Positions 8,401-62,099 of a DNA stretch of 64,000 nt are shown here, one piece after another; positions within the stretch are counted from its first letter, which is position 1; each line of letters begins with the position of its first letter. This DNA comes from Octopus sinensis. Taxonomy: Eukaryota. The position numbers and the translations under genes are program-made. The DNA lies in assembly GCF_006345805.1 (NCBI RefSeq), contig NC_042998.1, forward strand, positions 200,012,001-200,076,000. The letters are read 5' to 3'. The notes under the pieces are model-generated. The model was not told where the DNA came from. It saw nothing but the letters and a program-made list of their open reading frames with translations, and ran no database searches.

Positions 8401-8700
8401 GCAAATGAGAATACAGAGTCGATATAAAATCGACAGACATCAGCCGGTAAACATTCCGGTATGTCTATTTAGTTAAATTTATATTTTATTAGAGATACTG
8501 GAAATTTTACCGGCTGGTATCTGTCGATTTTATATACTCTCCGTTTCCTTATTTGCCGTATAAATCAAGCGTAAACCATTTGTTACACCCGCCCACATAT
8601 AATATCAAGTGCGAGATCGCCATGCAATAACTAGCAGTTGGATATGAATAATTGGTTACACTACTACCAGCGGTATATTGGATAGGTACTATCTCTTAGT
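8401..8700. mobile_element. Fold-back element: imperfect inverted arms 8401-8466 / 8490-8557 plus unique extension
   Basis: tataaaatcgacagacatcagccggtaaa pairs with tttaccggctggtatctgtcgattttata. Bounded by microsatellites. Confidence 0.65.
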
Positions 8701-9334: not shown

Positions 9335-9557
9335 AAGGCGGTGAGCTGGCAGAACCGTTAGCACGCCGGGCGGAATGCGTAGCCGTATTTCGTCTGCCGT
9401 TACGTTCTGTGTTCAAATTCCGCCGAGGTCGACTTTGCCTTTCATCCTTTCAGGGTCGATAAATTAAGTACCAGTTACGCACTGGGGTCGATGTAATCGA
9501 CTTAATCCCTTTGTTTGTCCTCTATGTTTAGCCCCTTGTGGGTAATAAAGAAACATA
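9335..9557 (+). mobile_element. tRNA-derived SINE family B, full length
   Basis: Head AAGGCGGTGAGCTGGCAGAA, B box GTTCAAATTCC, tail ..agccccttgtgggtaataaagaaa. Many copies in the window. Confidence 0.9.
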
Positions 9558-21132: not shown

Positions 21133-22424
21133 TAATAGATTAAAAGTGCTTCACATTGGTATTAAAGTACGGCAAATTGAAGACATGACGAAAAGGTTGC
21201 TGCCGTTATCAATCAAACGGTAAATCATACACTAGATCAATATCAAAATACGTGCAAACGAGTATTTGGAGAGAACTCCATCCAGTTTGAACCATGATCT
21301 TCAGGAATAGTTCTAATATCTTTCCATTCAATCGTCCATTGAAAACGTTTCATCGTTAAACGGTTTAATTATTAGCACCGAGTGGCCTTGTCAACCTACT
21401 TTACATTCAATTTTCGAGAGAAATGAAGGTATCTGCTGACTGCAAGAGTACATGGATAATGTGCATGTTCTACTGATAGGAATATCTCCTACACTTGTAT
21501 TTTTTAAAATCATATCGATTGTTCTTCAGCCAGAAGAAAAACTCAAGTAGAAAACATACTTCAAAACGTTACCAACAACTGACATCCTATTGTACTGAAC
21601 ATAGCGCAAACATCGTACTGCTTTCAACAATTTTGCAGTTCCTTTATTTCATTCTATTCCTAACAGATTTGTGAGCATTTTACAAGAAATCATCTGTCGG
21701 CTGTGACATCTCGCACTTTATGGTGTACATATTTCCCATCAGCGAGGAAAGGAATAAATGTGTACGACGTTAAGAAAAATCCCCGTTCGCATAAAACAAT
21801 GTGTAATAGGCAGGAAAGAAACTAGAAATATACTGTTTTGCTATCGAAAAATACACGCACACACACACAAACACCATACACGCACATATACACATATAAT
21901 CATAGATGTATTTACACATAAGCATATTTACTTGTATGTACATTCAAACATAAAAATAATATAAATCCAGCTAAACGATTACCAAACTAGCAGTTACTCC
22001 GCTGTAGAAGGGACATTAGAAACTGTCACCTTAAATGAAATGCGCCCCACAAATCCTGTGGAATGATTACTGATTGATCGCTTCAGATCGTCGGACTGTT
22101 GGATCAAACCTGACTTGCCGCTACACAAGTACAGTTACAACAATATCAAGAATTGAAATTGATATACACTCACCTGATCTCTGCTTATGTATACAGGTTT
22201 GTTAAATACAATCCACGTCACCGTTTCAAAGCAACCTGGTTGAGTAAATGAACCTTCGTAGGTAATATAATGATCTGTCTGTGGTATTAATTTACCAAGG
22301 TAAAAGTTACGTAGTTTGGATTCGTGTCCTGCGGGAAAGAAGGAAAAACAAAGAGTTAATTAATTTTCATAATTATCATCATTGTCATCATTTTAACGTC
22401 TTCATCATTATTACTATAGACGCT

Positions 22425-22800
22425 AAGGCGGCGAGCTTGCAGAATCGTTAGCAAGCCGGGCGAAATGCTTAGCAGTATTTCGTCTGCCGTTACGTTCTGA
22501 GTTCAAATTCTGCCGAGGTCGACTTTGCCTTTCATCTTTTCGGGGTCGATTAAATATGTACCAGTTACGCACTGGGGTCGATATAATCGACTTAATCCGT
22601 TTGTCTGCCCTTGTTTGTCCTCTCTGTGTTTAGCCGCTTGTGGGTAGTAAAGAAATAGGTATTTCGTCTGCCGCTGTTCTAAATTCAAATTCCGCCGAGG
22701 TCAACTTTGCCTTTCATCCCTTCGGTGGCGATTAAATAAGTACCAGTTACGCACTGGGGTCGATGTAATCGACTGAATCCCCTCCCATAAGTTGCCCTTC
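22425..22800 (+). mobile_element. SINE family B plus head-to-tail partial second unit
   Basis: Full unit 22425-22658. The second unit restarts internally at gtatttcgtctgccg. Confidence 0.85.
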
Positions 22801-25284
22801 TGGCAAAATTTGACATTATTATTCACATAAACACTACTACTATCAGCATTGGTGTTCCTGCTTCAACAACATCGTCACCACCGTCAGTGTTATCGTCATC
22901 TGTATTGTCATCATTGTCACCAACACAGGCAAGCGCTTCTCAGCCATTCTCAAATGTTATTGTATCGTCAAAATAACAACGTTCGTAGAATCATCGACAA
23001 GCACGTCTTTAGAAATCTTAGTCACATCATAAACATGATTATTATGATCATGATCATCACGATTAATATGATCATGATCATCATCAACATTATCACCACC
23101 GCCATCACCACCAACAACACAACTACCACCACCATTACCACCATCATCACTACTACCACCACCATTACCACAACCGACTACGACAACAACCCCGGCGAAA
23201 CCACCAACACCACCTCGTCCAGCTATACCATTATCTTCCGATTTTTCATTTCGTGTTATGCTGATTGATATATAACTTTAAAGTCTGTGTGGTTTCCGTT
23301 TGGATTGGTATTGCAATAACATACAAGTACTCTCCTGATATTTTGCCAGTCCACTGGGTATTTTATAATGATGACATCTATCAAACTGTTGGTGAATATA
23401 TGCCAGTTATTTCATAAATCTATTGGGATATCACTCAATGTTGATATTTAATACTGTTATGTCTCAATCATATTCCACTCCATAGATAAAGCTTATACAA
23501 TAATCTGCAGATACACTTTTGTGTCTCGAATTCTATCTACAAAACGATTGGCAGAAGCATGCGGGGGTCGAACAAAATGTTTTGCTTTAATTAGTAACTC
23601 TTTTCTTTCAAATGCTAACGAAAATGATTTCCAATTTTATTATCTTAGTGCCGAAGACATTTTTACCATTCGGTTAGTGTTATCGACTAAAAGCTCCCTT
23701 GAACCTCTGGTAGTATTTCTCACCAAATCCTCTTGAAATTTTCGGCTGTTTATCACCATTACTTAACAGCAATCGACATCTACTATTCCCATGTGCCGTC
23801 TGTAATGTCACGTTTACGGACGGGCTTAAATCATCTATTTTATAACCAGATCCATAGGGTTGATATATGTGCTCAGGCACCTTTTCTTTTATTTGATATC
23901 AATCTGCAGGCATCGAATGTATTGATCACCCCAGACTGGCAAATCTTATCACGACAGTCTAAGAGCAACACATTCAAGGAAACTGTATTTATAAAAGTAG
24001 AACACTGTCTTATAAGAATTTATTTAATGTACGAAAGAATTGTTTTGGAGGAAAGAGGAAACTGGGAGGTTGTTGCTCTCATTCAACTCCTAAGGATGCA
24101 TTAGCTGCGGAAGTGAAACATAATGGCTTCGCCTGACAATTAAAACTGTTTCAGACAGCGAATTCGATAGTTTATTCTTTGCTTCTTAGCACTGGCTTTT
24201 GTATTTATTTAATTGGACTATTTCCTTGTCTCTATATAGGAAATTAGTCAAATGCAAAACGAATGCAAATATAAGATACGCATGCTCAAGATGGATCGAG
24301 ATAATATTGTATTCGAAGATTGCATGCAACGAAATTATTTCTAAAAAGGTGACGCAATACTGGGATGTTTGTCCTGGCTTTTTACTTTCCTTGTTCAAAT
24401 CCCTTTGATGGCAACTTACTCTTTCATAGTTTCGGTGTTGATAAAATAAAGTAGCAGCCTAGTGTAGTACATTGGATGACTACGTATGGTTAGAAAAAGG
24501 ATTTGTTTCAGCTTTTAAGTTTATTACTTTCCCATACGATAACCTTGTCTATTTCCAATCGCCAAAATCGTGCCTTGTAAACTCTACGAAACTAGCGGGC
24601 GACTTGCTTAGCATACTCACACAGAAATGTTTGCAAAGCACATACATCTTCATAAGGACTTCAACAAAATTTATTTAGTTATTATCAATTTAGTAGTCCC
24701 CATGTAAAGGATTTTTTATGTGGTAGCTTTATGTGCTAGAAATTAACTGATAATTTTTCAAGGGTTAACTGGAGGTACAAATGAACAACATACTTATGAC
24801 AAGATTGAAACACTGTATTTACTAACTCAGACACGCTAAAAACAAAAAAAATGAAAGCGAAACAGGAAAAAGTATATCTAGGCGAGTATTATCTATAAGC
24901 TAAATTGGTTCGAATCCCAATTTTGATTGGATTTTGACTATTGTGTGGAATAACGGTAACGAATTATCCATTATAAATGACGAATACTTGTATTAGGATT
25001 TATGTTATAACGATATATTATTATGATTTCATATGTGATTTCACATTTGTTCATTCAGATACGCGAGTGGATAGCAACTGTGTATGTTGTATTCGTTACG
25101 CCTTAGAATAGTCCTTAGAATAGTTATGGACAACTGTCATTACGTTGTTTTCCCAGGGACAATATCTTGAGAACAATATTCAGTAACATAGTCTAATTTT
25201 ACGGTGATAGTGTGCTAGTAGAGGGAGAGACACCTGCTATTTCTCGAAGATCTAACATCACCGTTCAGATTTTCTCACATACAC

Positions 25285-25467
25285 TAGTAGTAATAGTAGT
25301 AGTAGTTTTAGTAGTAGTAGTAGTAGTACTAGTAGTAGTAGTAATAGTCGTAGTAGTAGTAGTAGTAGTAATAGTCGTAGTAGTTGTAGTAGTAGTAATA
25401 ATAGTCGTAGTAGTAGTAGTAATAATAGTCGCCGTCGTCGTCGTCGTCGTAGTAGTAGTAGTAGTTT
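25285..25467. repeat. (AGT)n/(CGT)n microsatellite
   Basis: Directly visible. Confidence 0.95.
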
Positions 25468-27099
25468 ATGAAATGGTGAAGGGATGTGTGGAGATGTTAG
25501 ATCTGTGTAGAGGTAATGCCTGTAGTTGATCAAGTGTCAGTCGTAGCAAAAGCGTGTTCACAATTAAAGAATATCCAATAGACTGTACAATATTGTCCAT
25601 TTATATTAGTTAATATCTAAAATCCTAATGTGCAATGTTCCCCTTCTTCACACGAAGAAGCATCTGTGTTTTTTCTGACCGAAAAGAAATAACAGCAATT
25701 CGAATCCAGATTTGATCACACTGACAACGACATAGGGATGTGTATATTTTTCATCGTTTAGGTATGTGCCATTAAACAAAGCTTATTTTTTACTTCTACT
25801 TCTCTGTATTTCGTTCTCTATTGTCAAACTCTTATTCCGCGTGTTCATACATTTGGCCTATATCAATTTTTAAGAATAGTATTTGACTCATTATACGAAG
25901 CCGTGGTATTTTTCTGTAGGCAATGGCAGAATAGATGTTCTGAAGAAAATTAGCTGATAATACAAGACAGCAGATGAATGCTTTGCTCTTATTGCTTACA
26001 AGATGACAGGCATAAAAGTTTATATTCAATAGTATGAGCTTGTATTAATCTCGTATGGCTATGAAACCTTGTTTAGCATTAAACCGAGGAATTCATATAA
26101 ATTGTACGAAACCTTTGATGGAAATCCTATGTGCTAAAAGTAGAACTAAAATTGTTCCTAATTAAAGTTTGTGGTATCACAACATTATTATGACACTTGC
26201 GTTAAATAAGGAAAAACAAATAGTTTATAGCATATTTTCTGAGAGTGAACAAAAGATATGCTTTCGTGATATTTCATAATAAAAAACACTTCTTAATTTT
26301 AAGAACTTCCATTCTAAGATGTGAAACTGACGTATAAGGATACTTTCCGTAAGGAAACATGCCATATTCACAGTCATTTCAATCAATTACACGAGTTAAA
26401 CTATTCACATTCTGATTCTGGCTTTCAGGACTCTATTTTACTTACATTTGAACAAATATATAGCCACGAATGTGCATACATATGTATAGAATATTCGTAC
26501 TCAATTTAACAGTTTGAATACACGCTACCAAAAAATAAAATAAAATAAAAAGTCCATCCCCAACATAAACGCATTTTTAAAAATCCAAAACGTATCGACT
26601 ATATTATGCCTGGGGCATAAAAATTTACTCTAAGTAACCGCCATCAGCATCCATCACTACTTCAATACTCCATGTTTGGAATGTAGAAATCAAAACGAAT
26701 TCAAATTTTTAACTTAGGCAGGTCTTGCATATTTTTACCGTTACGCTTACAGACTGCATTTGTCGTAATTGCAATATGTTTCTTTTCTCAAAACTCCATC
26801 TATTCCCCATTTCACGTCCTCATGGATTTTCTAACAAAATCATCTGCACCAGTTATTATCGGCATAATGCTGAATTTGTAGTCTGCGAATAGAACTTGGT
26901 GGTTGCGAAGCTGTTGTTTTTAGTTACTCACTTTCTCTTAGTTACAAACTCTCTGAGTGCGTCTCTATGATGGTGCATATATTTACTTGTCTGTCCCTAA
27001 CAACGATATCCAGTCTGTTATGTATGTATGTATGATGTATGTATGTATGTATGTATGTATGTATGTATGTGTGTATGTACGTATGTATGTATATCTCTT

Positions 27100-28420
27100 A
27101 TGTATTTAATCATTTAAACTCCTCTGAAGAAGGAGCTGGTTTCTAACAAAGATACAAAGCTCCATTTTTGGAATGTAGATAACGGAAACAATGTCATATT
27201 CTTAACCTGAGAAAAGTCTTTCATAGTATTACTGTTCCGCTTACAGATTGTATTTTGTAATATGCGAATCAGCTGGTTGATTTCATTTTCTGAAAATCGA
27301 ATCTTATCCAGACTGGCAGTTAGGCATTTAATTACAAAACCAAGTGCTCCAATTATTATTGGTTTAAATGTAAATTTGTAATCCGGATATAGAAGCTGGA
27401 GTTTTCGAAGCAGTTGTCCATGGTTATCTTCTTTCTCTCTGATTTTCAAAGCAATATTCACATCACAGGACAGCTGACATCTGTGATGTTACATACTTTT
27501 TCTTGACTATCCCAAAACAACAATATCCAGCCCGCTACGTTTAAGCTTGACAGATGTTTTGATGAGAATGTTCCAGCAGTATTCTCTTTGCTGGTACTTG
27601 AGTACATATTCAATAACATGGGGATACATTTTATTTATTCCAGGACAATATTTTTTTCCGACTGGTATTGTATATTGTTTCTGCGACTACGTCAAGTCGT
27701 ATTGGGAGATAGTAACTTGATGACATTTTTGGGAAGCTGCTAATCACATGTGTGATGTCTTCCACAGAAATATGACATAATCTACATTTACAGTTGCATC
27801 TCGGAACACCAGGGGCTTTACTGCCTCTTTTGATGATTAGGTACTTAGCAGCAATCTCCTGTTCTTGGACAGCAAATGCACAGCCTACGAAGTGTGATGT
27901 GATGTAGTAGTCACTAGTCTAAGAGAGGCTTCGCTTCACGTCAATGTTGCTATCTTCTTCCAGGTCTTCTATGAGGTATGCTTATCCAGCTGATCTGGAG
28001 TTGTATGGGAGGTCATCAAGAAACGAATACTTCTTGAAGAGCTCATTTTCAGCACGTAGGATATTGCTTACTTCACTTTTCTTCACTAAGTTAATCTATT
28101 TAATTTTGCTGCTGTTGTTTAGCAAGTGCAATCTGAGAGAGACTATACGACATTCGAAGGTTGTCTGTACTAGCCCGGACAGCGTTCAACGTTTCTTAGG
28201 TAGAGCTTGTCGATATCATTATTTTTGTGGAGATTTCCAGTAACTGTTAGAATCATGTGGGTTTTCATGTCTATGGAGTGGATTTCTTCTACAGACCAAT
28301 CTAGTATCCCAAATGTTGGAATCAGTGCTGGTACTGCAAATGCACAATAAAGCATTGTCTTGCAAGCAGAGAGTTCGGACTGCCATATCTTTCTTAGACT
28401 AGTCTAACATTCAAGAGCCA
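27100..28420 (-). pseudogene. Degenerate RLE-type LINE (R4/NeSL-like), distinct subfamily
   Basis: Minus frames give AFAVPALIPTFGILDW, CRLCHISVEDITHVIS and KEDNHGQLLRKLQLLYPDYKFTFKPIIIGALG. 3' end abuts (TATG)n. Confidence 0.85.
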
Positions 28421-29614
28421 CTCAGGGTACGTCAGCATGATATACTTTCATGAATGCCACAATGCTTGTGGCATTCATTGTGTCGGACACGAGAGATAGT
28501 GAGACCATTGATGCGCAGGTTTTGTGTCTGGGAGACTGATTTCCCCCGTTGAAGAACTACATAAGAACCTTTGTTCTGTACAAATTCAATTCATAACTAA
28601 ACTGAAAATGTTATTAATTTCAGTTGATTTTGGTATTGTTAATATTTTAAGCCGAAATCTGAAAGATATCCACAAGGTAATTCTGAGTGAAATATGTATG
28701 TATGTACGTATTATGTATATATGTATGCATATATCTGTACGTGCATGTACGAGTGTGTAGAAGCATGCATTCTATGTATACATGTATATGTGTTTATGAC
28801 TGATGTTATGTATTTATCAATCGTCTGTCGTTAAATCTATCTATCTATCTATTTATCTATATACGTACCTATCTATATGTATATCTATCTACCTGCCTAC
28901 CTACCTACCTACCTACCAACCTATCTATCTATCTAGTTATATATTTACACTTATAAATACAGGTATGTATTTACGTTGATATGTATACACGTACACGTAT
29001 ACACACCCACTTTTATATACATATTTTAACATACTTACGTATATGCCTGTGAGTGTATTTGTGTGAAGATAGATATAGATGTCTCCGCACATATACATTT
29101 AATCGAAACTACTCATGTATTTAAATAAAGTGATTCATAAAAATTGTATTGAATTAACTATTTTTCGAGTGAAAATAGCATGACGCCTTTCGTATTACTA
29201 ATTATATATATGTTCTGATCTTTTTCATTTGATCTGTATTAGAAACCATTGAAGTGGCAATAAAAAGCTGAGATATTTTCTATTCAAACTATTACTTTAA
29301 TATGAATAAGTTACAAGAACAAAAAGACAAAATCTAAAATGGTGGAAAAGCAGTTCCGTTGTAGAAGTCATAGCATGTTATGTAAATTATATTTAATAAT
29401 TTCTGAGTATAACTTAACTGAAACGCTTATGGAATCTAACTTCCAATCATCCAGAGAACAATATCAGTTTTGGAAGGTGTATGTTGTTGTAGTTGTAATT
29501 GTTATTAGCATTGTTGTTGTAGTTTTATTATCATTATTATTATTATTCATGATTTCAGAAATGCATCGAGAGTTTCCTTTCTTAAAAGAATTTGCGACAT
29601 TTTTGAAAACATGC

Positions 29615-29668
<54 letters not shown>

Positions 29669-29717
29669 GGTGTTTTTGCTGCTTTTATGATTGTTATGGT
29701 TATTATTATTATTATTA

Positions 29718-29751
<34 letters not shown>

Positions 29752-29780
29752 AAAAACAACAGCTGCAGTAGCAGCAGCAC

Positions 29781-29816
<36 letters not shown>

Positions 29817-29824
29817 CAGTGGTA

Positions 29825-29878
<54 letters not shown>
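29615..29878. repeat. Compound (ATT)n/(AGT)n microsatellite
   Basis: Directly visible. Confidence 0.95.
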
Positions 29879-30324
29879 TGTGATTGTTCTGGTAGCTGGC
29901 TGAGAGCAAGTTATATAACTGCTTTGGAGTTTTGGAAGTTCTTTCATCTGACACAAAATAACGAGCAAACTAAATGTGTCTTCGCCTTATGGGAAGGAAG
30001 CGTTAAGTTTTAGCCAAGATTTTCGATCTGAAAAACTTAATATAGCAAATAATACCAGCGACATCGTGGATGTCGCCGACGTATTGAAATTACGTACATG
30101 TGGCAAACGCTTGCATGGATTCACAGATAAGCATATATATGCATACATAGACACATGTACTCAATCATACAGATACACACAGATAAAATCTCTCAAATTT
30201 GCAGCGATACTTATGCGTGGATATAAACAGAAATATGCATAAACCGATTTGGATATATACCTCGACGATATTACATACACACATATACGGGCACACATAA
30301 TCACACACATACAAAGAGTAGATG

Positions 30325-30540
30325 AAACCATGGCGACTGAAGAAGGGGAATTTTCCTTGTGTTATTTGTCCTGTACTCTATTTTTCGTTGTTTAAGAAAA
30401 ATGTCCAGTTCCTTGGTTGTGTTCGTGGGTTTTTTTGGTGGGTGTCCTGTACCCATATAAGCATGTATATATTCATGTAGAGATAGGTATGTACATATAT
30501 GTATGTATATATGCGTATGTTTTATTTATTAATTTATATA
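30325..30540 (+). mobile_element. Short element ending in (TA)n with a partial hammerhead-like core
   Basis: CTGAAGA-A-GGGGAA..TTCCTT but no following GAAA. Same family as 3580-3752. Confidence 0.55.
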
Positions 30541-30604
30541 TATATATATATAAAGTATATGTATTTGTGAAGGAGTCTGACTTCTCGTCGACAACCATGA
30601 TTGT

Positions 30605-30649
30605 CACACGCTGATGAAAGGTAAACACCTTGAAACTCGGGTACGTGTG
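30605..30649 (+). ncRNA. Minimal type-I hammerhead ribozyme motif with canonical core
   Basis: CACACG-CUGAUGA-AAGG(UAAACA)CCUU-GAAAC-UCGG-GUA|CGUGUG. Stem I can extend (CAUGAU/AUCAUG). Lies in element 30553-30858 between (TA)n tracts. Confidence 0.8.
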
Positions 30650-30877
30650 TATCATGTGTTGAAGACGGGGAGGATGACTCCACTTCACAAATACTGACAG
30701 GACACAGATAGTGTGTCTATAGCCAGCGGGAGGAGGTGTCTTCCTGGGGCTACAAACAACAGTAGCATCCACCCTTTTGGGTTAGCCATATTCAAATGGC
30801 ATATATGCATCACGTTGTGTTACCGCTACTGTTTATAACTCGCTCTGAGATTTATCATTATATATATATATATATAT

Positions 30878-31080
30878 AACGGGAAAATAAACAAAAGACG
30901 AAGGCAAGTGGAATATAAACAAACAGTTGTATTAGTATGGCGCTCAGGAATATAAATAAAACAAGTCTTTTACGTTTCGAGCCTACGCTCTTCAACAGAA
31001 AGATACACAGAAAAGAAACACAGAAAGAAACAAGGAGAGAAAAGAAATGCGTGCAGAAGCTAGCGAATCAACATGGCGAT
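30878..31080 (-). mobile_element. Short hammerhead-bearing element (motif 30966-31003)
   Basis: Minus strand UCUUU-CUGUUGA-A-GAGC(GUAG)GCUC-GAAAC-GUA|AAAGA. Perfect stems, A6U change in the core. Confidence 0.7.
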
Positions 31081-34439: not shown

Positions 34440-34540
34440 ATTAAACATAGTAAATAGGGTAATAAAAATAAATTATTATGACCAGTGACCTAGTACAAAA
34501 GACGAATTAGTCATTAGACTATACGTTATTCATATATAAG

Positions 34541-34658
34541 TACATTAAAAGGCTTCCAAATAAAGAAGCGAGTGCTAGATACACAAAAAGGGGATAAATT
34601 CATATCCCCTTTTTGTGTATCTAGCACTCGCTTCTTTATTTGGAAGCCTTTTAATGTA
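34541..34658. repeat. Perfect hairpin, 56-bp arms, 6-nt loop (AATTCA)
   Basis: 34541-34596 is the exact reverse complement of 34603-34658. Confidence 0.95.
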
Positions 34659-34831
34659 TTTATATACATATATATATATATTTTAAGTAGACAAATGAAT
34701 TATCTTATTACGGATAATTCGAAAGATAACCGATACCTGGGTAGCAAACTCACAACAGAAAAAGCACGGTTGAAGTTACGACCATAGGGCATAAAATCCG
34801 TGCCTTAGTGCGGAAATTTGAAGTTTAATTT

Positions 34832-39050: not shown

Positions 39051-39465
39051 ATTAGCTTCAAGGTTCATCCAAGACTGGGACCACGGGCCATACGTCCCCT
39101 GCCCAATTCAAGATCACAACATACATGTACACTGCAACATAATTTCTTTTCCTCAACAGGCCCTGCCCTATTTAACATTGTCCCGAGGGAGATCAAAGAG
39201 GAAAAGGATCCCATCAACTTTAAACAGAGTCTGGATAGATTCCTTCAAAGAATACCAGATAAGCCACCCATTATTGGATACAACTCATCCAACAAGAACT
39301 CACTACTTGAACAAAACTTGATACAACTCACCCAACAAGAACTCACTACTTGAACAAAACTTGACTTAAACAGGATTCGAATAATCCTATCAGGTGGTGC
39401 TATTAAGTTAGACATGACCTGGACCAATCTTTGGTCGAAACATATCTAAGTTATCTAAGTTATAC
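39051..39465 (+). mobile_element. CR1-group LINE 3' fragment
   Basis: ISFKVHPRLGPRAI..FSSTGPALFNIVPREIKEEKDPINFKQSLDRFLQRIPDKP with a (TATCTAAGT)n tail. Same family as 121-397. Confidence 0.8.
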
Positions 39466-39599
39466 ATATATACATAATTGATGCTTCTTGATGGGGTGGC
39501 ATTAAATGTAGACCTGCATTATCAATGTCAGCATGAACCACAAATCAACCAACAATGTTAATATATATTGCTATACTTGTTCTTCCTCCTTATTTTCTT

Positions 39600-40715
39600 C
39601 GTGGACAAAATAATGGAAACTCCTAGCATCATAGTATCATAATTTTGAAATAACTATATATCCACAAAAGCTTTGTTTTTTTGTATTTATCATTAGTGTG
39701 GCTTAATATATATTTTGCTAAAATTGCTGTTTCTTTTCAGATATCTTCGAAAAAGGGTAATTCAAATTCATTAAAATGACAGATCTATCCGACTTTCAAA
39801 GATGATAGGCGCTAGCATGACGAAAACAGCCGAAATGTTTGGTGTATCAAGAAGTACTGTCTCGAAAATATTGACAGCCTTTGAGAAGAGGGGAAAACCT
39901 CCTCATCGAAGCAAAACTCCGGAAGGAAACCAAAACTTTCAGATGGGGACTGTCAGACACTTACGCGAATTGTTAGAAAGGATCACAAAAGTACAGCTCC
40001 CAAAATTACTGCAGAGCGTAATGACTACATCGAGAACCCAGTTTCCGCAAAACTGTTTGCCGGGAGCTGCAAAAAGCCGGATTTCACTGAAGGGCTGCAA
40101 TAATAAAACCGCTACTTTCAATAACAAATGTTGCAAACCATTTAGAGTGGAGTAAAAATCTACAGAATTGGTCCCTAGATCAGTGGAACAATGTTATTTT
40201 CTCGGACGAGTCACCTTTACCTTATTTCTGACACACGGGCGACTACACGTGTGGAGCCAGCTAAAAGAAATATCTTACCCAGACTGCCTACTTCCAAATT
40301 TTATATGATCAAATTCATCCTATAGTTGCAAAACTGTTTCCGGAGGGAAACACAATCTTTCAGGATGAAAATGCACCAATTCACAAAGCTAAATTTCTTA
40401 CTAAATGGCATAAGGAACATTCTGGTGAAGTTGAACATCTTATCTGGCTACCACAGTCACCAGATATTAATATTATTGAACATTTATGGTGCGTGTTAGA
40501 AAAACAAGTAAGGAGTCAATATCCTCCACCATGTTCACATCAAGAACTGGAGACTGCTTTAGCTGAAGAATGGGCAAAAATTCCTTTGGAAACTATTCGA
40601 ACTCCGTACGGGCCCATACGTCGTAGAATTCAAGCTGTAAAGGCGGTCCTATCTCATATTAAAATAATTTTCTTTGAAATTTTAAGGTGATTCCATCACT
40701 TTGTCCGACTCCCGT
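39600..40715 (+). mobile_element. Decayed Tc1 (DD34E) DNA transposon
   Basis: MTDLSDFQR..AEMFGVSRSTVSK (HTH), WNNVIFSDES, IFQDENAPIH, WLPQSPDINIIEHLW. Imperfect TIRs gtggacaaaataatggaaac / gattccatcactttgtccgac. Frameshifted. Confidence 0.9.
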
Positions 40716-40774: not shown

Positions 40775-40821
<47 letters not shown>

Positions 40822-40822
<1 letters not shown>

Positions 40823-41140
40823 CAATTCATAAATAAGGGCAAACGAAAAAATTTCTAATGCCAAATATGCCGAAAAATTGGACATATTGTCCATTAACCA
40901 TATAATTTTAGAAATTTCTGTCCACCTTTTTTCGAGTAGCGTGCGTATTGTGAAAAAATTATATGGTTAATGGACAATATGTCCAATTTTTCGGCATATT
41001 TGGCATTAGAAATTTTTTCGTTTGCCCTTATTTATGAATTGTTTATAATTGTAACCTTTAAACGTATTTTTTTGATATGCTGCACAATGATAAAATTTTT
41101 TGGGGAAAGAAATTTTTTCGAAAAATATTTTATCCTACAT

Positions 41141-49507: not shown

Positions 49508-49718
49508 ATACAGTTCTATGCTTAATAGATGAGGAATTATGTTTATCATTTACATTAATTACAATTGACGGATATTTGTCCTCATCTTGTTTGTTGGTAA
49601 CACAACTTTTCGGCTGATAAATCCTCCAGCCTTCATCAGGTGTCTTGGGGGAAATTTAAAACCGGGGTTCCTGAGGTATTTTTCGACGTTGTTGTTGTTA
49701 TTATTATTATTATTATTA

Positions 49719-49752
<34 letters not shown>

Positions 49753-49882
49753 GTTATTATTTTTTTTTCAGGTCACTCGAAATTTCCCCAAGACACCTGA
49801 TGAAGTTGGAGGGCATATCATCCGAAACGTTGTGTTAACAACAAACAAGATGTGGACAAATATCCATCAATTGTAAATAATA
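49508..49882. mobile_element. Fold-back element: inverted arms (about 49551-49657 / 49780-49882) around (ATT)n, each arm with a hammerhead motif
   Basis: Consensus ACAC-CUGAUGA-A-GGCUG..CAGCC-GAAAC-GUU|GUGU on minus (49600-49643) and plus (49793-49835). Confidence 0.85.
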
Positions 49883-50139
49883 TGGATAATGAAAATTCGA
49901 TTAGTCCCCCAAGAAATAGTAGGACTTTTAGCAAAAAAGGAACTCACTAGTAGAAGAAGGATCCCTTATATCTCCCCCTAGTTGAAAATGACAGGAAAGC
50001 ACTGATATATTCCGGAGGAGATTAAAGATTTTCGAAAACAAAATACGGAGCCCAGGTCAAGCGTGGATTCCCTGGCTGTCGGCTGTAATAAAAACAATAA
50101 GGATGGTTCCAAATTTTGCCAGAAATGCAGCAATTTTTT

Positions 50140-50512
50140 GGGGGAAAGGATGAGTCGATTACATCGACTCCAGTGTTCAATTGGTACTTATTTCATGGAC
50201 CCCAAAAGATAAAAGGGAAAGTAATTTTTGGAGTAATTTGAACTCAGAACGTAGCAACAATTGAAATACCCCTAAGTATTTTGCTTGGCGTGCTAACGAT
50301 TCTGCCAGCTCGCCGCCTTAATCCTTGACATTTTGGAGGAGGAGACCAGTCAATTAAATCGACACCAGTGTTTCACTGGTGACTAATTTATCCCTCCAGA
50401 AAGGATGAAAGGCAAAGTCGACCTCGCCGGAATATGAAATCAGAACCTAGCGACGGGCAAAATACCACTAAACATTTCACCCGGCATGATAACGATTCTG
50501 TCAGTTCACCGC
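50140..50512 (-). mobile_element. Two tandem SINE family B copies
   Basis: 50140-50320 and 50335-50512 each match the reverse complement of the family B head and body. Confidence 0.8.
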
Positions 50513-50560
<48 letters not shown>

Positions 50561-50600: not shown

Positions 50601-53118
50601 GGAAGGCGGCTGGACGTGACAGAGGATGGACGTTTTTTACGATGCTCTGAACTGGCAACAGCGAACCCAGCAGGTCAACTGTAGAAAACTGGAAGATCTA
50701 CTGTTTTCTGTAAGTAATTGAATTACCCTCAAAATAAGAAAAAAAAAAATCTTACATATCTACAGCTCATACAAACGTACACCTAACAAGAAAAATTAGA
50801 AACATACATATCTCCAATTCTGTGTGAACATTTACATTTAGTCGTCTCTCATGACTATAAGAATGTGTAAAATTGCCTTTTAAATTACCTTTTTTGTAAC
50901 AAACAATTAAATGCACGATAAAAAGTTATGGAATTAGCACCTACTACTACATACATACAACGAATTCAGAAATTTAAAAATATATACATAACATTGAACT
51001 CAGAAAGTTATTTAAAAAAAAGAAAAAAAAAATCTTCGACGAAAACATCAGATAATATGTGTGAGTGAATATACATACATAACATATACATATGCAGTGG
51101 AGAAGAAGAGAACGAAAAAAAAAAATAAATAAACGTAAACAGGTTTGACCTTTTACTGACCATTAACGTCCTTTGTCTCCACCATCTACCGTGGCTATTT
51201 ATAGACCCAAAGAACATGAATTCTTTAACACCCATTCTCCAACACAATGGAGGTTGATGGTGGCTGTGGCTACACATTGAAGATGATGATGGTGATGGTG
51301 ATGTTGCTGATGATGGTGATGGTGGTGAAGATGATAGTAATAACAATAATAACTGACAGATCCCGTCTTTTTCCCTTTCTTTTCGTTTCCTTTCCGTATT
51401 TTATTCTCATTATTTCGAACTAATACAGACACAGTAAGCCTTGAAGAAAGGAAGAGGAGAAAGGAGAAAAAAAAAAAATGTCCGGAGATAAAACTATCAA
51501 CAAAAAAATACAGACGAATATAGATCTGCTAGTCTTAAGAAGCGGCGCTATGAGCAATGCTTACATGTAGTGAACCCGAAACTGACAGATCCATCTCCTA
51601 ATATAAGAATGGATGCTCGTCATGCTTCAAGGTCAACAAATCAAACAATAAACCGCATTGGTCATTGCGCGGATTACAAAAGACCACGTACCCGAAAATT
51701 GAACCAAATTCTGATTGAAAAATCAGTTACTGGATCAAATCTTCCCAACACACAGGAGCTGGACGAACCCCACAACCGGAATATTCCAACAGATGGCCAT
51801 CCATGCTCATCACCAAATAATCAAAAGAAAAAGAAGGAAAAATGGTCTAGGGAAGATAATAAAGAAGTTCTTGAGGCCTTCTACCATGCCATATATTTCC
51901 CCACAGATAAGTCTAGCACTGTACAAGCATACTTAAACTGGAGACAGAAACACCCTGAAGTAAGACCCTACATAGACAGTAACAAGCTTGCCAATGTTAG
52001 AAGAAACATTATAAAAAAGAAATTACTGACTGAAGTAGAGATTGATCAGGTTAGACAAGCATATCGGATAAAATGAACGAAGCTGCAGCTAGAGAAGATA
52101 ATACAGAGGAAATGATTATAGACCAGCCCAGGGCGGATAAAAACGAAGAGAGGATTGAAAGAGTTAGTATAAGTGATAGGCAAAGTGAAATACGCCCTGA
52201 ACCAATCATAAACACTAAGACAGATGAGCATCAAATAGATAAAGAAAGTCACACAAATATTGACCAACAGAACTACATGAGCTAAAAAATCAAATCATGA
52301 TTGAATGGCTGAAAATTAAAGAAACCAGCATGGATGAGCGTGATACACTTCCTAAAATCCGCAACTCTAACCAAAACATGAAAATAATTGGTAAATCCGG
52401 CTTGCACTTAAGGATATAATTTCAGTTAATGATGTTGATATCACAAACCTCAATCACCTATACTATGCATCCGCGAAAATCTCAACGATCCTATGTGGTG
52501 TAAAGATTAGAAAACGGCAACAGTCCCACAAAAAGCCTTCTTGGCAAGAGCGTCTGCAACAACAAATTAAAGTATTTAGATCTGACATTGAATATTTGAA
52601 AAACCTTAAGGCTCACAAGACTACCAAACCTACAAAAACCCAAAATTACTGAAAAAATACAATATGAAAACTATACTTGATATTGATGCCACCATAGAAA
52701 CCATCAAACAAAAGGTATCTGCCAAAGCTGCCCGCATAGCGAGGTATGAAAAGCGTGTTAGATTTTTCAAGGACAACAACATGTTCAAAAATAACACCAA
52801 GAATTTTTACAGGAAGATAGGAAAAACAGCGTTTACTGCAGGGTCTGTACCATCAAAAGAAGAAGTGCAGAGATTTTGGAATAAAATCTGGGCAGAAGAA
52901 AAAACACACAACGAAAAGGCCCCCTGGATTGACAGAATATCTACAGAACTGGACCCCTTAGAAGAGCAAAAGTGGGAGGGTGTCAAGGTAGAAGATATAA
53001 GATCTGCTCTCAGGAGGTCAAGCAAATGGAAGTCTCCAGGAAAGGATAAAATTCCTAACTTCTGGCTGAATGCCTTCCAGAGAGCCATGAACTGCTAACA
53101 GAACTGTACAATGATGTT

Positions 53119-54912
53119 TTGCAACACCCTAGTAGGATGCCTCCTTGGCTAGTTAATGGGTTAACATTCCTGCTTCCAAAAAGTGAAGAAACAAATGAAC
53201 CAAAAAACTATAGACCCATAACCTGCTTAACAACTATGTACAAAACACTAACATCTGTCCTGACGGAATATACCTATAGTTTTTTAACAGACAGCAGCAT
53301 ATTCCCTAATGAACAGAAAGGATGTAAACGTGGATCCTACGGCTGTAAAGACCAACTACTCATCAATAAGATGATCTTAGAAGATTGTCACAAACGACAC
53401 AAAAACTTATCAATAGCCTGGATAGACTATAAAAAGGCTTTTGATAGCCTACCACATAGCTGGATTAGGAAATGCCTTGAAATGTATAAGATAGCACCAA
53501 CTCTGCGAAACTTCTTGACTGTAAGTATGAGATCATGGAGAACCACACTAACTCTGAACAGTGACAGTGAATCCCTAAATGCTGGTGATGTAAAAATTTC
53601 GTGTGGCATTTTCCAGGGTGACTCACTGTCACCACTCCTCTTTTGTTTATCCTTAATACCTCTCTCAAAGCTGCTCAATGACGCGCAGTACGGGTATAAA
53701 ATGTTTGATAAAAATATAAATCATCTCGTTTACATGGATGATTTAAAGCTTTTTGCAAAAAATGATCAACAACTCAAGGGCTTACTAGCGATAGTCAAAC
53801 AATTCAGTGACGACATCAGAATGCAATTCGGCCTCGATAAATGTGCAAAGGCTACCTTTATCAAAGGAAAAATGACAGAAACATCTAACGTTAACCTTGA
53901 CCAACAGAATGTCATAAAAGAACTAGACCCAGCGGAGAGCTACAAGTACCTAGGGGTAATTGAAGGGAACGGAATAAGGCATTCAGAGATGAAGGAAAGG
54001 ATCAGGAGAGAATGCTATCGAAGAGTGAGAGCAATACTCAAGACAGAGCTGAATGCAAGAAACAGGATCGAAGCAATCAATGCATTAGCTATACCAGTCG
54101 TGACTTACAGTTTCAATATTGTTAACTGGTCAATTACTGAAATATGTCAGCTCGACAGAAAAATAAGGAAACTGTTGACAATGCATAGAATGCACCACCC
54201 TAAGGCAGATACAGAACGACTCTATCTGCCAAGAAAAGAGGGAGGCCGTGGTCTTTTGCAACTGGCAATAACAATGAAGATTGCTACAATTGGCCTAGAC
54301 ACCTACCTGAAAAACTCTGAGGACTGGATGTTAAAACTTGTCTCAAAACATGAAAACAAGAAAGCATCATACTCAGTCACAAAACAGGCAAAGGAATATC
54401 TAAGTGAATTCCGAATACAACCAATTTCGGAATTAGAGATAGACATACAAGAAACAAGCACAGAAAAAGCTAGGCGCATGAAAACCCGTGCCAAAACTGC
54501 GGCCTTAGATATTCTGAATAATAAATGGCAAGAAAAACCTCTCTATGGCAAATACCCAAAGAGAGCGAATAATGCAGATATCGACAAAGCCCTGACCCAT
54601 CAATGGCTAATGGCCTCTGGCTTAAAATCTGAAACAGAGGGGTTTATCATAGCAGCTCAAGATCAATGCCTACCAACAAGAAACTACCAGGCCAACATAT
54701 TAAAGATCAGAAGCAGTCCAACGTGTCGTGTATGCAAGCAACAAAATGAAACCATTGACCATGTGGTCTCCAAGTGCAGTCTTCTAGCGCCTACAGAGTA
54801 TCTCAACAGGCACGATAGAGCTGCACAATATATTCACTGGGTAATCTGTAAAAACCTGGATTTGCCCCATGAAAAAAACTGGTGGGAACACAAACCACCC
54901 CAGTGTGCTTGA
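53119..54912 (+). CDS. Reverse transcriptase domain and zinc knuckle of the R4/Dong-like element
   Basis: NYRPITCL, WIDYKKAFDS, GIFQGDSLSPLLF, YMDDLKL, YKYLG, CRVC..ETIDHVVSKC, RHD. Confidence 0.95.
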   Translation: MQHPSRMPPWLVNGLTFLLPKSEETNEPKNYRPITCLTTMYKTLTSVLTEYTYSFLTDSSIFPNEQKGCKRGSYGCKDQLLINKMILEDCHKRHKNLSIAWIDYKKAFDSLPHSWIRKCLEMYKIAPTLRNFLTVSMRSWRTTLTLNSDSESLNAGDVKISCGIFQGDSLSPLLFCLSLIPLSKLLNDAQYGYKMFDKNINHLVYMDDLKLFAKNDQQLKGLLAIVKQFSDDIRMQFGLDKCAKATFIKGKMTETSNVNLDQQNVIKELDPAESYKYLGVIEGNGIRHSEMKERIRRECYRRVRAILKTELNARNRIEAINALAIPVVTYSFNIVNWSITEICQLDRKIRKLLTMHRMHHPKADTERLYLPRKEGGRGLLQLAITMKIATIGLDTYLKNSEDWMLKLVSKHENKKASYSVTKQAKEYLSEFRIQPISELEIDIQETSTEKARRMKTRAKTAALDILNNKWQEKPLYGKYPKRANNADIDKALTHQWLMASGLKSETEGFIIAAQDQCLPTRNYQANILKIRSSPTCRVCKQQNETIDHVVSKCSLLAPTEYLNRHDRAAQYIHWVICKNLDLPHEKNWWEHKPPQCA

Positions 54913-59744: not shown

Positions 59745-60340
59745 CCAAACAATAGAAATTCTCTTCCACACCTAGAGACACGTGCGATCGGACTGAAAAC
59801 TCTCATAGAGTGAGAAAGTTCGGAAGTGAACACTATAAAAATTTACATCTAAAATTCTAACAATGGCCAGAATATTAAAAAAATACCTTTAAAGATTAAA
59901 TATATAAACCAATTATAAACGAGTCCGATCGCACGTGTCTCAAGGAGTGCTGGAGAAATTCTATTTTGGATATATCTGGGGTACTTCAGTGTTCTCATAA
60001 CTCAGTGTTTGCTTCTTCCATTGGTGTAAGTAAGTATTTCATTTATTTCTTACCGTATTTATCGCTGACGAGGAGAAAATTCTTATGAATTAACTCTGAA
60101 ATTGGGACCGATACGATAATAACGGAATCTTTTAGAAATTTCTGTCGGCTTCCTTCCAGACGCCTGCTTATAGAGATAAATTATATGGTTATAGACAATT
60201 TGTCTATTTTCTGCATATTTGCCATTATAATTTTTTTTTCTTTTGCCTTTGTTTATAAGGAGTTTATAAATTTAACCTTTAAAGGTAATTTTTAATATGC
60301 TGGCCATTGATAGAAATTCTTTCGAAAAAATTTATCCTAT

Positions 60341-61249: not shown

Positions 61250-61627
61250 ATTTACATCGGCTGAACCAATCTCTCAGTTTATTCAGCATAAGAAGATGAA
61301 AGGTAAAGTCGACGCTGACATGGCAGAAACGTTAGCACACCGGGCGCGAAATGCTTAGCAGTATTTCGTTAGCCGCTACGTTCTGAGTTCAAATTCCGCC
61401 GAGGTCGACTTTGCCTTTCATCCTTTCGGGGTCGATTAAATAAGTACCAGTTACGCACTGGGGTTGATATAATCGACTTAAACCGTTTGTCTGCCCTTGT
61501 TCGTCCCCTCTGTGTTTAGCCCCTTGTGGGTAGTAAAGAAATAGGAATTTGGAGAGAACATAATGTCAGAAGAAATTACCTTAAATTTTTTTCCGGTGCA
61601 GTAACAATTTTAACAGCTTGGCATCTT
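61250..61627. mobile_element. Young SINE B (+, 61321-61543) nested in an old SINE B (-)
   Basis: The old copy reads ..gatgaaaggtaaagtcgac | ggaatttg..cttaataat across the insert. Confidence 0.75.
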
Positions 61628-61674
61628 AATAATAATAATAATCCCCTCTACTAAAAGCACAAAGCCTGGAATTG

Positions 61675-62040
61675 TGGGGGAGGGAACTAGTCGATTACAT
61701 AGACTCCAATGTTTCACAGGTACTTAATTTATCGAAAACGAAAAGATGTAAGGCAAAGTCGATCTTGGTGGAATTTGAACTCAGAACGTAAAGAGATGAA
61801 ATGTTGTTAACCATTTCGCCCGGCGTGCTAATGATTCTGCCAGCTCACTGTATTTTTAATTATGATAATGATGGTTTCAAACTTTGCCACAAGGGTCGCT
61901 ATTTTTTTTTGGGGGGGGGGATACGTCGATTAGGCTCATACCAGTGTTCAAATGGTACTGTATTTATCGAACACGAAAGGATGAAAGGCAATGTCGACCT
62001 CGGCGGAATTTGAAATCAGAACGTAGCGACGGGCGAAATA
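61675..62040 (-). mobile_element. Two further SINE family B copies
   Basis: 61675-61850 and 61915-62040. Confidence 0.8.
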
Positions 62041-62099
62041 CAGACTACAAAGCTAATAGGAACGATAAGGGACAAATGAGGTGTTGATCAATGCTGTAT

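What the first reader, a model, noticed from the sequence alone, without database searches (positions are those of the whole stretch)
30596..30656. Best-preserved hammerhead: all core nucleotides intact
Seen: 6-bp stem I with an extension after an internal loop, CUGAUGA, 4-bp stem II, GAAAC, stem III AC(UCGG)GU and a GUA cleavage triplet at 30641-30643. Inference: the extended stem I bulge could contact loop II as in tertiary-stabilised HHRs. This is the most likely active copy and would cut any + strand transcript here.
Basis: partly seen in the sequence, partly recalled or inferred. Interest (0 to 1): 0.7.

Follow-up and report, generated by a model that had tools for sequence, protein, structure and literature searches.

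The report
Solo hammerhead retrozyme, antisense in intron
This predicted self-cutting RNA motif is one of over a thousand similar copies carried by a small protein-free repeat that was likely pasted around the genome by a Penelope-type enzyme; this copy is a lone, clipped one facing backwards in what is likely a gene's intron, so it is probably a harmless passenger, though its family is the landing site of a second jumping gene.

Summary
The motif is real: a canonical type I hammerhead at 30605-30649 with an intact core and a predicted cut after 30643 (chance about 0.005 per window). The tertiary-contact idea holds up: U1.7 (30650) and the last A of a 6-nt loop II are invariant in 35 of 35 variants. 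It is not a special copy. It lies in a 308-bp, 5'-clipped single copy (30552-30859) of a ~352-bp head-to-tail repeat, a non-LTR retrozyme; 87 identical and 1,168 similar hammerheads exist genome-wide, mostly GUC-type, some in multimers. Insertions show the Penelope footprint: (TA)n targets, two fixed 3' ends about 45 nt apart, and one of each in 31 of 31 classifiable back-to-back insertions. This copy has one ribozyme, cannot excise a circle, and lies antisense within a likely minus-strand carbonic-anhydrase-like intron, so host pre-mRNA would not be cut. A LINE lands exactly on the stem I extension in 21 of 30 copies examined. Cleavage and expression are untested. The scan found this kind of system before on other DNA of this genome.

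The parts
30552..30859 (+). 5'-clipped single copy of a ~352-bp non-LTR retrozyme unit (308 bp; lacks 44 nt of the unit; one hammerhead)
   Evidence: nearest near-full-length copy differs at 4 of 308 places
30561..30694 (+). predicted long hairpin capped by the hammerhead
   Evidence: -65.2 kcal/mol on + versus -53.5 on the reverse strand for 30560-30698
30585..30604 (+). empty landing site of an L1/Tx1-like LINE (the 20-21 bp duplicated on insertion in sister copies); overlaps the stem I extension and bulge
30596..30604 (+). outer helix of stem I (5' side) and 3-nt bulge UGU
30605..30610 (+). stem I, 5' strand (6 bp, G2.1-C1.1)
   Evidence: 98% of cells paired
30611..30617 (+). core CUGAUGA
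30618..30631 (+). stem II (4 bp, A10.1-U11.1) and 6-nt loop ending in an invariant A (30627)
   Evidence: 3 of 4 pairs show two-sided changes
30632..30642 (+). GAAA core and 2-bp stem III with loop UCGG; 30635-30642 is self-complementary (predicted intermolecular duplex -8.9 kcal/mol)
30641..30643 (+). GUA triplet; predicted cleavage after 30643
   Evidence: GUA is a natural, active triplet (PMC1636495, passages)
30644..30656 (+). stem I 3' strand, unpaired U1.7 at 30650, outer helix 3' side
   Evidence: U1.7 in 35 of 35
30808..30818 (+). position of the family's short (S) 3' end; not used in this copy
   Evidence: 51 of 111 arms
30816..30859 (+). ~45-nt 'tail' between the two fixed ends; this copy ends at the long (L) end, 30859
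   Evidence: 54 of 111 arms end at L
30535..30552 (.). (TA)n left flank
30860..30878 (.). (TA)n right flank
22174..22328 (-). internal exon of a carbonic-anhydrase-family gene; its upstream exons lie about 250 and 420 kb further on, placing the hammerhead antisense in a likely intron

Best explanation
The motif is a canonical type I hammerhead sequence inside a lone, 5'-clipped copy of a ~352-bp non-coding head-to-tail repeat, a non-LTR retrozyme, that was likely inserted into a (TA)n tract by a Penelope-like reverse transcriptase/endonuclease and is likely inert at this site. Shown by sequence: the fold's parts, the family, tandem and circularly permuted copies, (TA)n flanks, two fixed 3' ends, back-to-back arms. 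Inferred life cycle: multimeric source loci are transcribed; hammerheads, helped by a stem I bulge/loop II contact and by pairing of two palindromic stems III, cut out unit-length RNA that a host ligase closes into a circle; a PLE protein nicks (TA)n DNA and starts reverse transcription internally at two sites about 170 and 215 nt past the cut site, one on each target strand, running round the circle (or along an uncut multimer) until it falls off. This copy kept only the long-end arm, 308 nt. It runs through an intact cut site, so its template was uncut or re-ligated. With one ribozyme it cannot release a circle, and host pre-mRNA from the minus strand carries the inactive complement. If some + strand RNA crosses it, it would probably be cut after 30643, at a modest rate.
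For: Family: 51 matches among 40 scored of 2,796 candidates at 95-98%; 87 exact 45-mers, control 0; 1,168 pattern matches, control 0. Unit 352-353 bp in direct tandem, one arm of 2,506 nt; GC 42.6%, circular fold z -8.3 against 60 shuffles. Structure: 93% of cells paired, 34 two-sided changes against 13.7 in shuffles, slid controls 17-55%. PLE footprint in 72 loci / 111 arms: 105 end at S or L; 35 loci are back-to-back, 31 L+S, 4 S+other, none S+S or L+L (p 5e-10 against 50%); 5' ends scattered, 2 of 111 within 3 nt of the cut site, 2.2 expected; 31 arms exceed one unit. Same signatures are described for PLEs (PMC8557442, passages; PMC11167929, main text). The genome holds young RT + GIY-YIG elements, 98-99% alike, that also end in (TA)n. 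Host gene: three Pfam PF00194 exons in order on the minus strand with clean splice sites flank the site.
Against: No cleavage, RNA or circle was shown. Rfam is negative. The active fold is not the predicted minimum. No PLE whose terminal repeat resembles this retrozyme was found among 40 GIY-YIG loci, so the partner is inferred from footprint only. Long arms fit an uncut multimer as well as a circle. Loci were chosen for holding the hammerhead, which biases arm lengths; two stray segments (L012 first arm, L026 distant fragment) were dropped before loci were classed, and L138/L139 are one duplicated region. The exon for Pfam positions ~110-160 was not located, and exons 250 kb apart could belong to two genes. 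In vitro, the lizard PLE showed no difference in start site between strands (PMC11167929).
Confidence: 0.85

Rival explanations
1. It is a solo terminal repeat (pLTR) fragment of an autonomous Penelope-like element, not an independent retrozyme.
For: Same insertion footprint; PLE terminal repeats carry type I hammerheads (PMC4209133); many Xenopus retrozymes resemble pLTRs (bioRxiv 10.64898/2026.07.22.740005). One copy lies 0.9 kb upstream of a 775-aa PLE frame (L083).
Against: The L083 copy is inverted, bounded by (TA)n at both ends and absent from that element's 3' end. Two PLE proteins hit only 2 of the retrozyme loci, L083 and a short piece in L022. Copies are pure head-to-tail units up to 7-mers with no ORF, and the hammerhead is canonical, unlike the minimal ones at PLE ends.
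Confidence: 0.07
2. This copy is an active regulator that cuts a + strand (antisense or non-coding) transcript at this locus.
For: Core and predicted tertiary bases are intact; all 4 differences from the nearest near-full-length copy lie outside the hammerhead; invertebrate retrozyme hammerheads with a 2-bp stem III cut as monomers at 0.1-0.8 per min (PMC7229834).
Against: Intactness is expected of a young copy (about 1% from its relatives). No + strand host gene was found near it; the gene found is on the minus strand.
Confidence: 0.05
3. The repeat is an ordinary satellite or SINE spread by DNA-level duplication, and the hammerhead is a dead relic.
For: No Rfam hit; active fold not the predicted minimum; most predicted Xenopus dimers did not cut (bioRxiv 10.64898/2026.07.22.740005).
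Against: Dispersed copies with unrelated flanks, fixed 3' and ragged 5' ends mean retrotransposition; two-sided changes in stem II and the outer helix across subfamilies 72-100% alike mean selection on the fold; no tRNA-type head or poly(A) is evident in the unit.
Confidence: 0.03

Closest known systems
Metazoan non-LTR retrozymes (coral, Mytilus, axolotl; PMC7229834: passages, section 14 and Discussion read; vertebrate survey bioRxiv 10.64898/2026.07.22.740005: parts 1-3 of 5 read, supplements not seen)
   Same: Type I hammerhead in a short non-coding unit (352 bp; mussel 350-390, axolotl 330/350), GC under 45%, monomers, dimers and multimers, strongly self-paired predicted circle, co-occurrence with PLEs, 2-bp stem III with tetraloop.
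   Different: Keeps the predicted tertiary bases that the mussel motif mostly lacks; the window's subfamily has GUA and A10.1-U11.1; insertions show a strict one-short-end/one-long-end rule and a LINE targets the unit, neither described in the parts read. RNA and circles not shown here.
EN+ Penelope-like elements (PMC8557442 passages; PMC11167929 main text; PMC4209133 passages)
   Same: Partial tandems, inverted 5'-truncated arm, a short 'tail' often at one end only, (TA)n or AT-rich targets, two internal start sites of reverse transcription, hammerhead nearby and not marking the insertion end.
   Different: No ORF; tail about 45 nt instead of 30-40; canonical rather than minimal hammerhead; no sequence-related PLE found.
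Schistosoma mansoni tertiary-stabilised hammerhead (via PMC11875169 and PMC4209133 passages; loop sequence recalled)
   Same: 6-bp stem I, unpaired U1.7, internal loop and outer helix, 4-bp stem II whose loop ends in A.
   Different: Bulge is 3+1 nt; stem III only 2 bp and palindromic; GUA; no structure or kinetics here.
Target-specific Tx1-clade LINEs (PMC4640811 passages; Tx1L in Tx1D recalled)
   Same: Apurinic-type endonuclease + RT LINE that inserts at one site of a multicopy repeat with a fixed duplication.
   Different: The target is a ribozyme's stem I extension; clade was not tested by a tree; absent from the window copy.

Membership tests
Type I hammerhead ribozyme | Core C3-A9, G12-A14, A15.1-U16.1, H17 with three helices, open helix I | tested here: met
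Type I hammerhead ribozyme | Match to an Rfam hammerhead model | tested here: not met
Type I hammerhead ribozyme | Self-cleavage after H17 | not testable with these tools
   needs in vitro transcription
Tertiary-stabilised (canonical metazoan) hammerhead | 6-bp helix I, 4-bp helix II, conserved loop bases (U1.7, last A of loop II) | tested here: met
   invariant in 35 of 35 related variants; conservation only, the contact itself is inferred
Non-LTR retrozyme | Type I hammerhead in every unit of a 150-450 bp tandem, low GC, no ORF, no LTR | tested here: met
   for the family
Non-LTR retrozyme | Active locus has two or more consecutive hammerheads | tested here: not met
   window copy has one; met by 5 of 72 loci examined and by L061-L063. 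The copy is a solo derivative of the family, not an active locus
Non-LTR retrozyme | Expressed as linear and circular unit-length RNA | not tested
   no reads were laid; see Tried and rejected
PLE-mobilised sequence | Fixed 3' ends with optional tail, 5' truncation, inverted arm, AT-rich target | tested here: met
PLE-mobilised sequence | Sequence-related autonomous PLE in the genome | tested here: inconclusive
   PLEs present, none related among 40 loci from 147 matches
Autonomous Penelope-like element | RT + GIY-YIG frame attached to the repeat | tested here: not met
Tx1-clade target-specific LINE (the family's parasite) | APE + RT + zinc finger ORF2, CCHC ORF1, fixed site with duplication | tested here: met
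Tx1-clade target-specific LINE (the family's parasite) | RT groups with Tx1 clade | not tested
   no tree built

The most novel reading that the evidence does not exclude
A three-tier parasite system readable from DNA alone: a PLE dimer primes both target strands on one circular retrozyme RNA, always using the short start on one strand and the long start on the other; and an L1/Tx1-like LINE targets the one stretch the ribozyme cannot change (the stem I extension), re-creates that stretch by its 20-bp duplication so the hammerhead stays whole 59 nt behind it, and uses the hammerhead to trim its own read-through RNA, leaving a tail that pairs with the next target site.
Probability: 0.25. Interest if true: 0.7.

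Novelty: new member of a known kind. Interest (0 to 1): 0.38.

Why it matters
The single copy matters little. The family gives a young, well-sampled test of the unproven claim that PLE proteins move animal retrozymes, and the 31-of-31 short/long pairing is a sharp prediction for the existing in vitro PLE assay, which so far saw no strand difference in start sites. A LINE that homes on a ribozyme's conserved helix would add a new kind of target to site-specific retrotransposons. I found no paper on an octopus-type retrozyme (searches) or on a LINE targeting a retrozyme (listings only); Repbase and the supplements of PMC7229834 and of the 2026 preprint were not seen and may hold such entries. 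The scan has reported the same architecture for several other families in this genome.

Tried and rejected
Rfam at gathering score and at E 10: no hammerhead; the miRNA-like hits beside it fall on AT-rich repeat, far below their gathering scores. Sequencing runs: no RNA holder listed; no reads were laid, so expression, in vivo cut ends and circles remain open. Second descriptor hit at 60065: long weak stem II, not in the strict set, taken as chance. Search for a partner PLE: 30 GIY-YIG loci plus 10 longer stretches, no related terminal repeat; L083 and L057 neighbours read as separate insertions. Insertion ends at the ribozyme cut site: rejected, 2 of 111. Missing carbonic anhydrase exon inside the window: not found by paralog exons nor by Pfam on 51 short minus-strand frames in 22360-30600. 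The window's own LINE (51492-54909) did not match the retrozyme-targeting LINE by blastn. Earlier-findings look-up by sequence: nothing. A 5-bp stem II reading was set aside because the family conserves a 6-nt loop.

Full report
OBSERVATION. A strict descriptor gives 1 hit in the window and 1 in 200 Markov replicates. Rfam gives no hammerhead match. Five other hammerhead-like cores in the window are damaged and belong to other repeats, so this is the best one within 64 kb.

THE ELEMENT. A search of the own genome with 30555-30780 returned 51 matches among 40 scored of 2,796 candidates, the full-length ones 95-98% identical, with unrelated flanks. Sister loci show a head-to-tail unit of 352-353 bp. 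The window holds 308 bp of it (30552-30859) between two (TA)n tracts, 4 differences from the nearest near-full-length copy, none in the hammerhead. The 45-nt hammerhead occurs 87 times exactly; a looser pattern matches 1,168 times, control 0. Only the first 100 were listed: by my count 54 are one form with GUC, G10.1-C11.1 and a perfect stem III palindrome, 9 are the window's GUA form. That commonest form builds arrays, one arm of 2,506 nt. A natural unit has 42.6% GC and folds as a circle at z -8.3 against 60 shuffles. These are the features of metazoan non-LTR retrozymes (PMC7229834; bioRxiv 10.64898/2026.07.22.740005).

THE RIBOZYME. Among 35 distinct 61-nt variants, 93% of cells pair and 34 cells show two-sided changes against 13.7 in shuffles; slid controls pair 17-55% (related sequences inflate such counts, and core and inner stem I were fixed by the pattern for the older loci). 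Bases not in the pattern are invariant: bulge U 30602, U1.7 30650, loop II A 30624 and A 30627 (35 of 35), against about 80% identity in the rest of the unit among the 21 more distant loci. An unpaired U1.7 contacting the last A of loop II is the contact seen in solved full-length hammerheads (PMC11875169, passages), and 6-bp helix I, 4-bp helix II and a short palindromic helix III define the canonical metazoan type, which often needs a second copy (PMC4209133, passages). GUA is natural and active (PMC1636495, passages). Against easy activity: ViennaRNA puts the active fold 5.6 kcal/mol above a fold pairing CUGA with UCGG; the commonest subfamily fares alike (5.9), and the model does not score the core. 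Coral and mussel monomers cut at 0.8 and 0.1 per min, axolotl ones weakly (PMC7229834); 1 of 9 Xenopus dimers cut (preprint above). I put monomer cleavage at roughly even odds and dimer cleavage as likely; both are inference.

HOW IT MOVES. I mapped 72 loci (29, 40 further exact matches, 3 close relatives; about 14 exact-match loci were not fetched) onto the unit. Of 111 arms, 51 end at a short site (window 30808-30818) and 54 at a long site (30851-30864, mostly 30859 or 30862); 82 are followed directly by TA-rich sequence under a strict test. Of 35 back-to-back insertions 31 pair one short with one long end, 4 have one unclassifiable end, none pairs like with like. The 36 single-arm loci split 22 long, 14 short; the window copy is a long-end single arm. 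5' ends are scattered and not enriched at the cut site (2 of 111; 2.2 expected); 31 arms exceed one unit. I had seen the two ends; the pairing test was prompted by earlier scan notes. Older subfamilies show the same two ends. Partial tandems, an inverted truncated arm, a tail often at one end only and (TA)n targets are PLE marks (PMC8557442, passages); a lizard PLE starts reverse transcription at two internal sites, extends both target strands, is predicted to be a dimer and does not need ribozyme cleavage (PMC11167929, main text). The genome has young RT + GIY-YIG elements ending in (TA)n, none sequence-related to the retrozyme among 40 loci. PLE mobilisation is therefore inferred from footprint; circle versus uncut multimer is not resolved.

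THIS COPY'S CONTEXT. A carbonic-anhydrase-family exon lies at 22174-22328 on the minus strand with clean splice sites. Two more exons covering Pfam positions 50-109 and 2-58 lie about 250 and 420 kb further on, same strand, right order. The first zinc histidine of carbonic anhydrase II aligns with K, so the protein is likely a non-catalytic relative (CA10/11-like by recall). No further exon was found between the exon and the hammerhead. The ribozyme thus likely sits antisense in an intron and would not cut that pre-mRNA. No + strand host gene was found nearby. With a single ribozyme the copy cannot release a unit-length RNA.

A PARASITE OF THE FAMILY. Six of the 72 loci (two of them one duplicated region) join the same foreign 3' end at unit position 32-35. 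It is a ~5-kb LINE with zinc-knuckle ORF1 and endonuclease, RT and zf-RVT domains, flanked in two full-length cases by a 20-21 bp duplication equal to window 30585-30604. Of the 30 best copies of its 3' end (40 scored of 299 candidates), 21 are followed by the hammerhead 23-27 nt on; 6 of these were loci already in hand and two pairs are duplicates; 3 more look like decayed units, 1 is followed by the duplicated site and another LINE start, 5 lie elsewhere. The duplication leaves the hammerhead whole, in sense, 59 nt behind the LINE. That the LINE uses it is a hypothesis.

VERDICT. Real hammerhead; plausible tertiary contact; not a privileged or likely functional copy. New member of a known kind (non-LTR retrozyme, solo derivative). 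The scan's notes describe the same architecture for other families of this genome, which they call octopus-like (unchecked AI notes; none matched this sequence). Interest 0.38, carried by the family-level pairing rule and the LINE target rather than by this copy.

Noticed in passing
window 7650+, 58247+, 30998-, 49639-, 49797+: Five damaged minimal-type hammerhead cores of other repeats; 49540-49881 is a back-to-back pair of such ends around a (TTA)n tract; the 30998 type recurs in L049, L085 and L086.
   Followed up: partly
L140, L143, L146-L175; empty site at window 30585-30604: An L1/Tx1-like LINE inserts at one site of this retrozyme with a 20-21 bp duplication ending at the stem I bulge; 21 of 30 best copies examined.
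   Followed up: yes
window 22174-22328 (-); G000:C2 200281585 and 200456437: Carbonic-anhydrase-family gene spread over more than 420 kb, first zinc histidine replaced by lysine, likely a non-catalytic relative.
   Followed up: partly
L084-L089: Young Penelope-like family, 98-99% alike, 781-aa RT + GIY-YIG frame, all examined 3' ends in (TA)n, with only a degenerate hammerhead-like stretch near the end.
   Followed up: partly
L083:4952-5272: A retrozyme copy sits inverted in a (TA)n tract in the 5' region of a PLE; its hammerhead has GUC and a G10.1-U11.1 pair, between the two subfamilies.
   Followed up: partly
window 51492-54909 (+): LINE with RT and zf-RVT domains (617-aa frame), unrelated by blastn to the retrozyme-targeting LINE.
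   Followed up: partly
window 39169-40690: HTH_23 and DDE_3 frames, with a 300-bp repeat at 39169-39474 also found at 116-397: likely a Tc1/mariner-type DNA transposon remnant.
   Followed up: no
window 9335-9553, 22425-22830, 50097-50532, 61313-62041: Abundant short repeat, often nested or back-to-back; looks like a tRNA-derived SINE (from recall, not tested).
   Followed up: no
listing; L065, L070, L079: Several subfamilies carry U-U or C-A mismatches at the base of stem II, as described for one axolotl retrozyme; loop III stays mostly palindromic (UCGA, UCGG, CCGG).
   Followed up: partly
window 8401-8556, 34533-34666, 40817-41047: Long perfect or near-perfect inverted repeats, possibly MITEs.
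   Followed up: no
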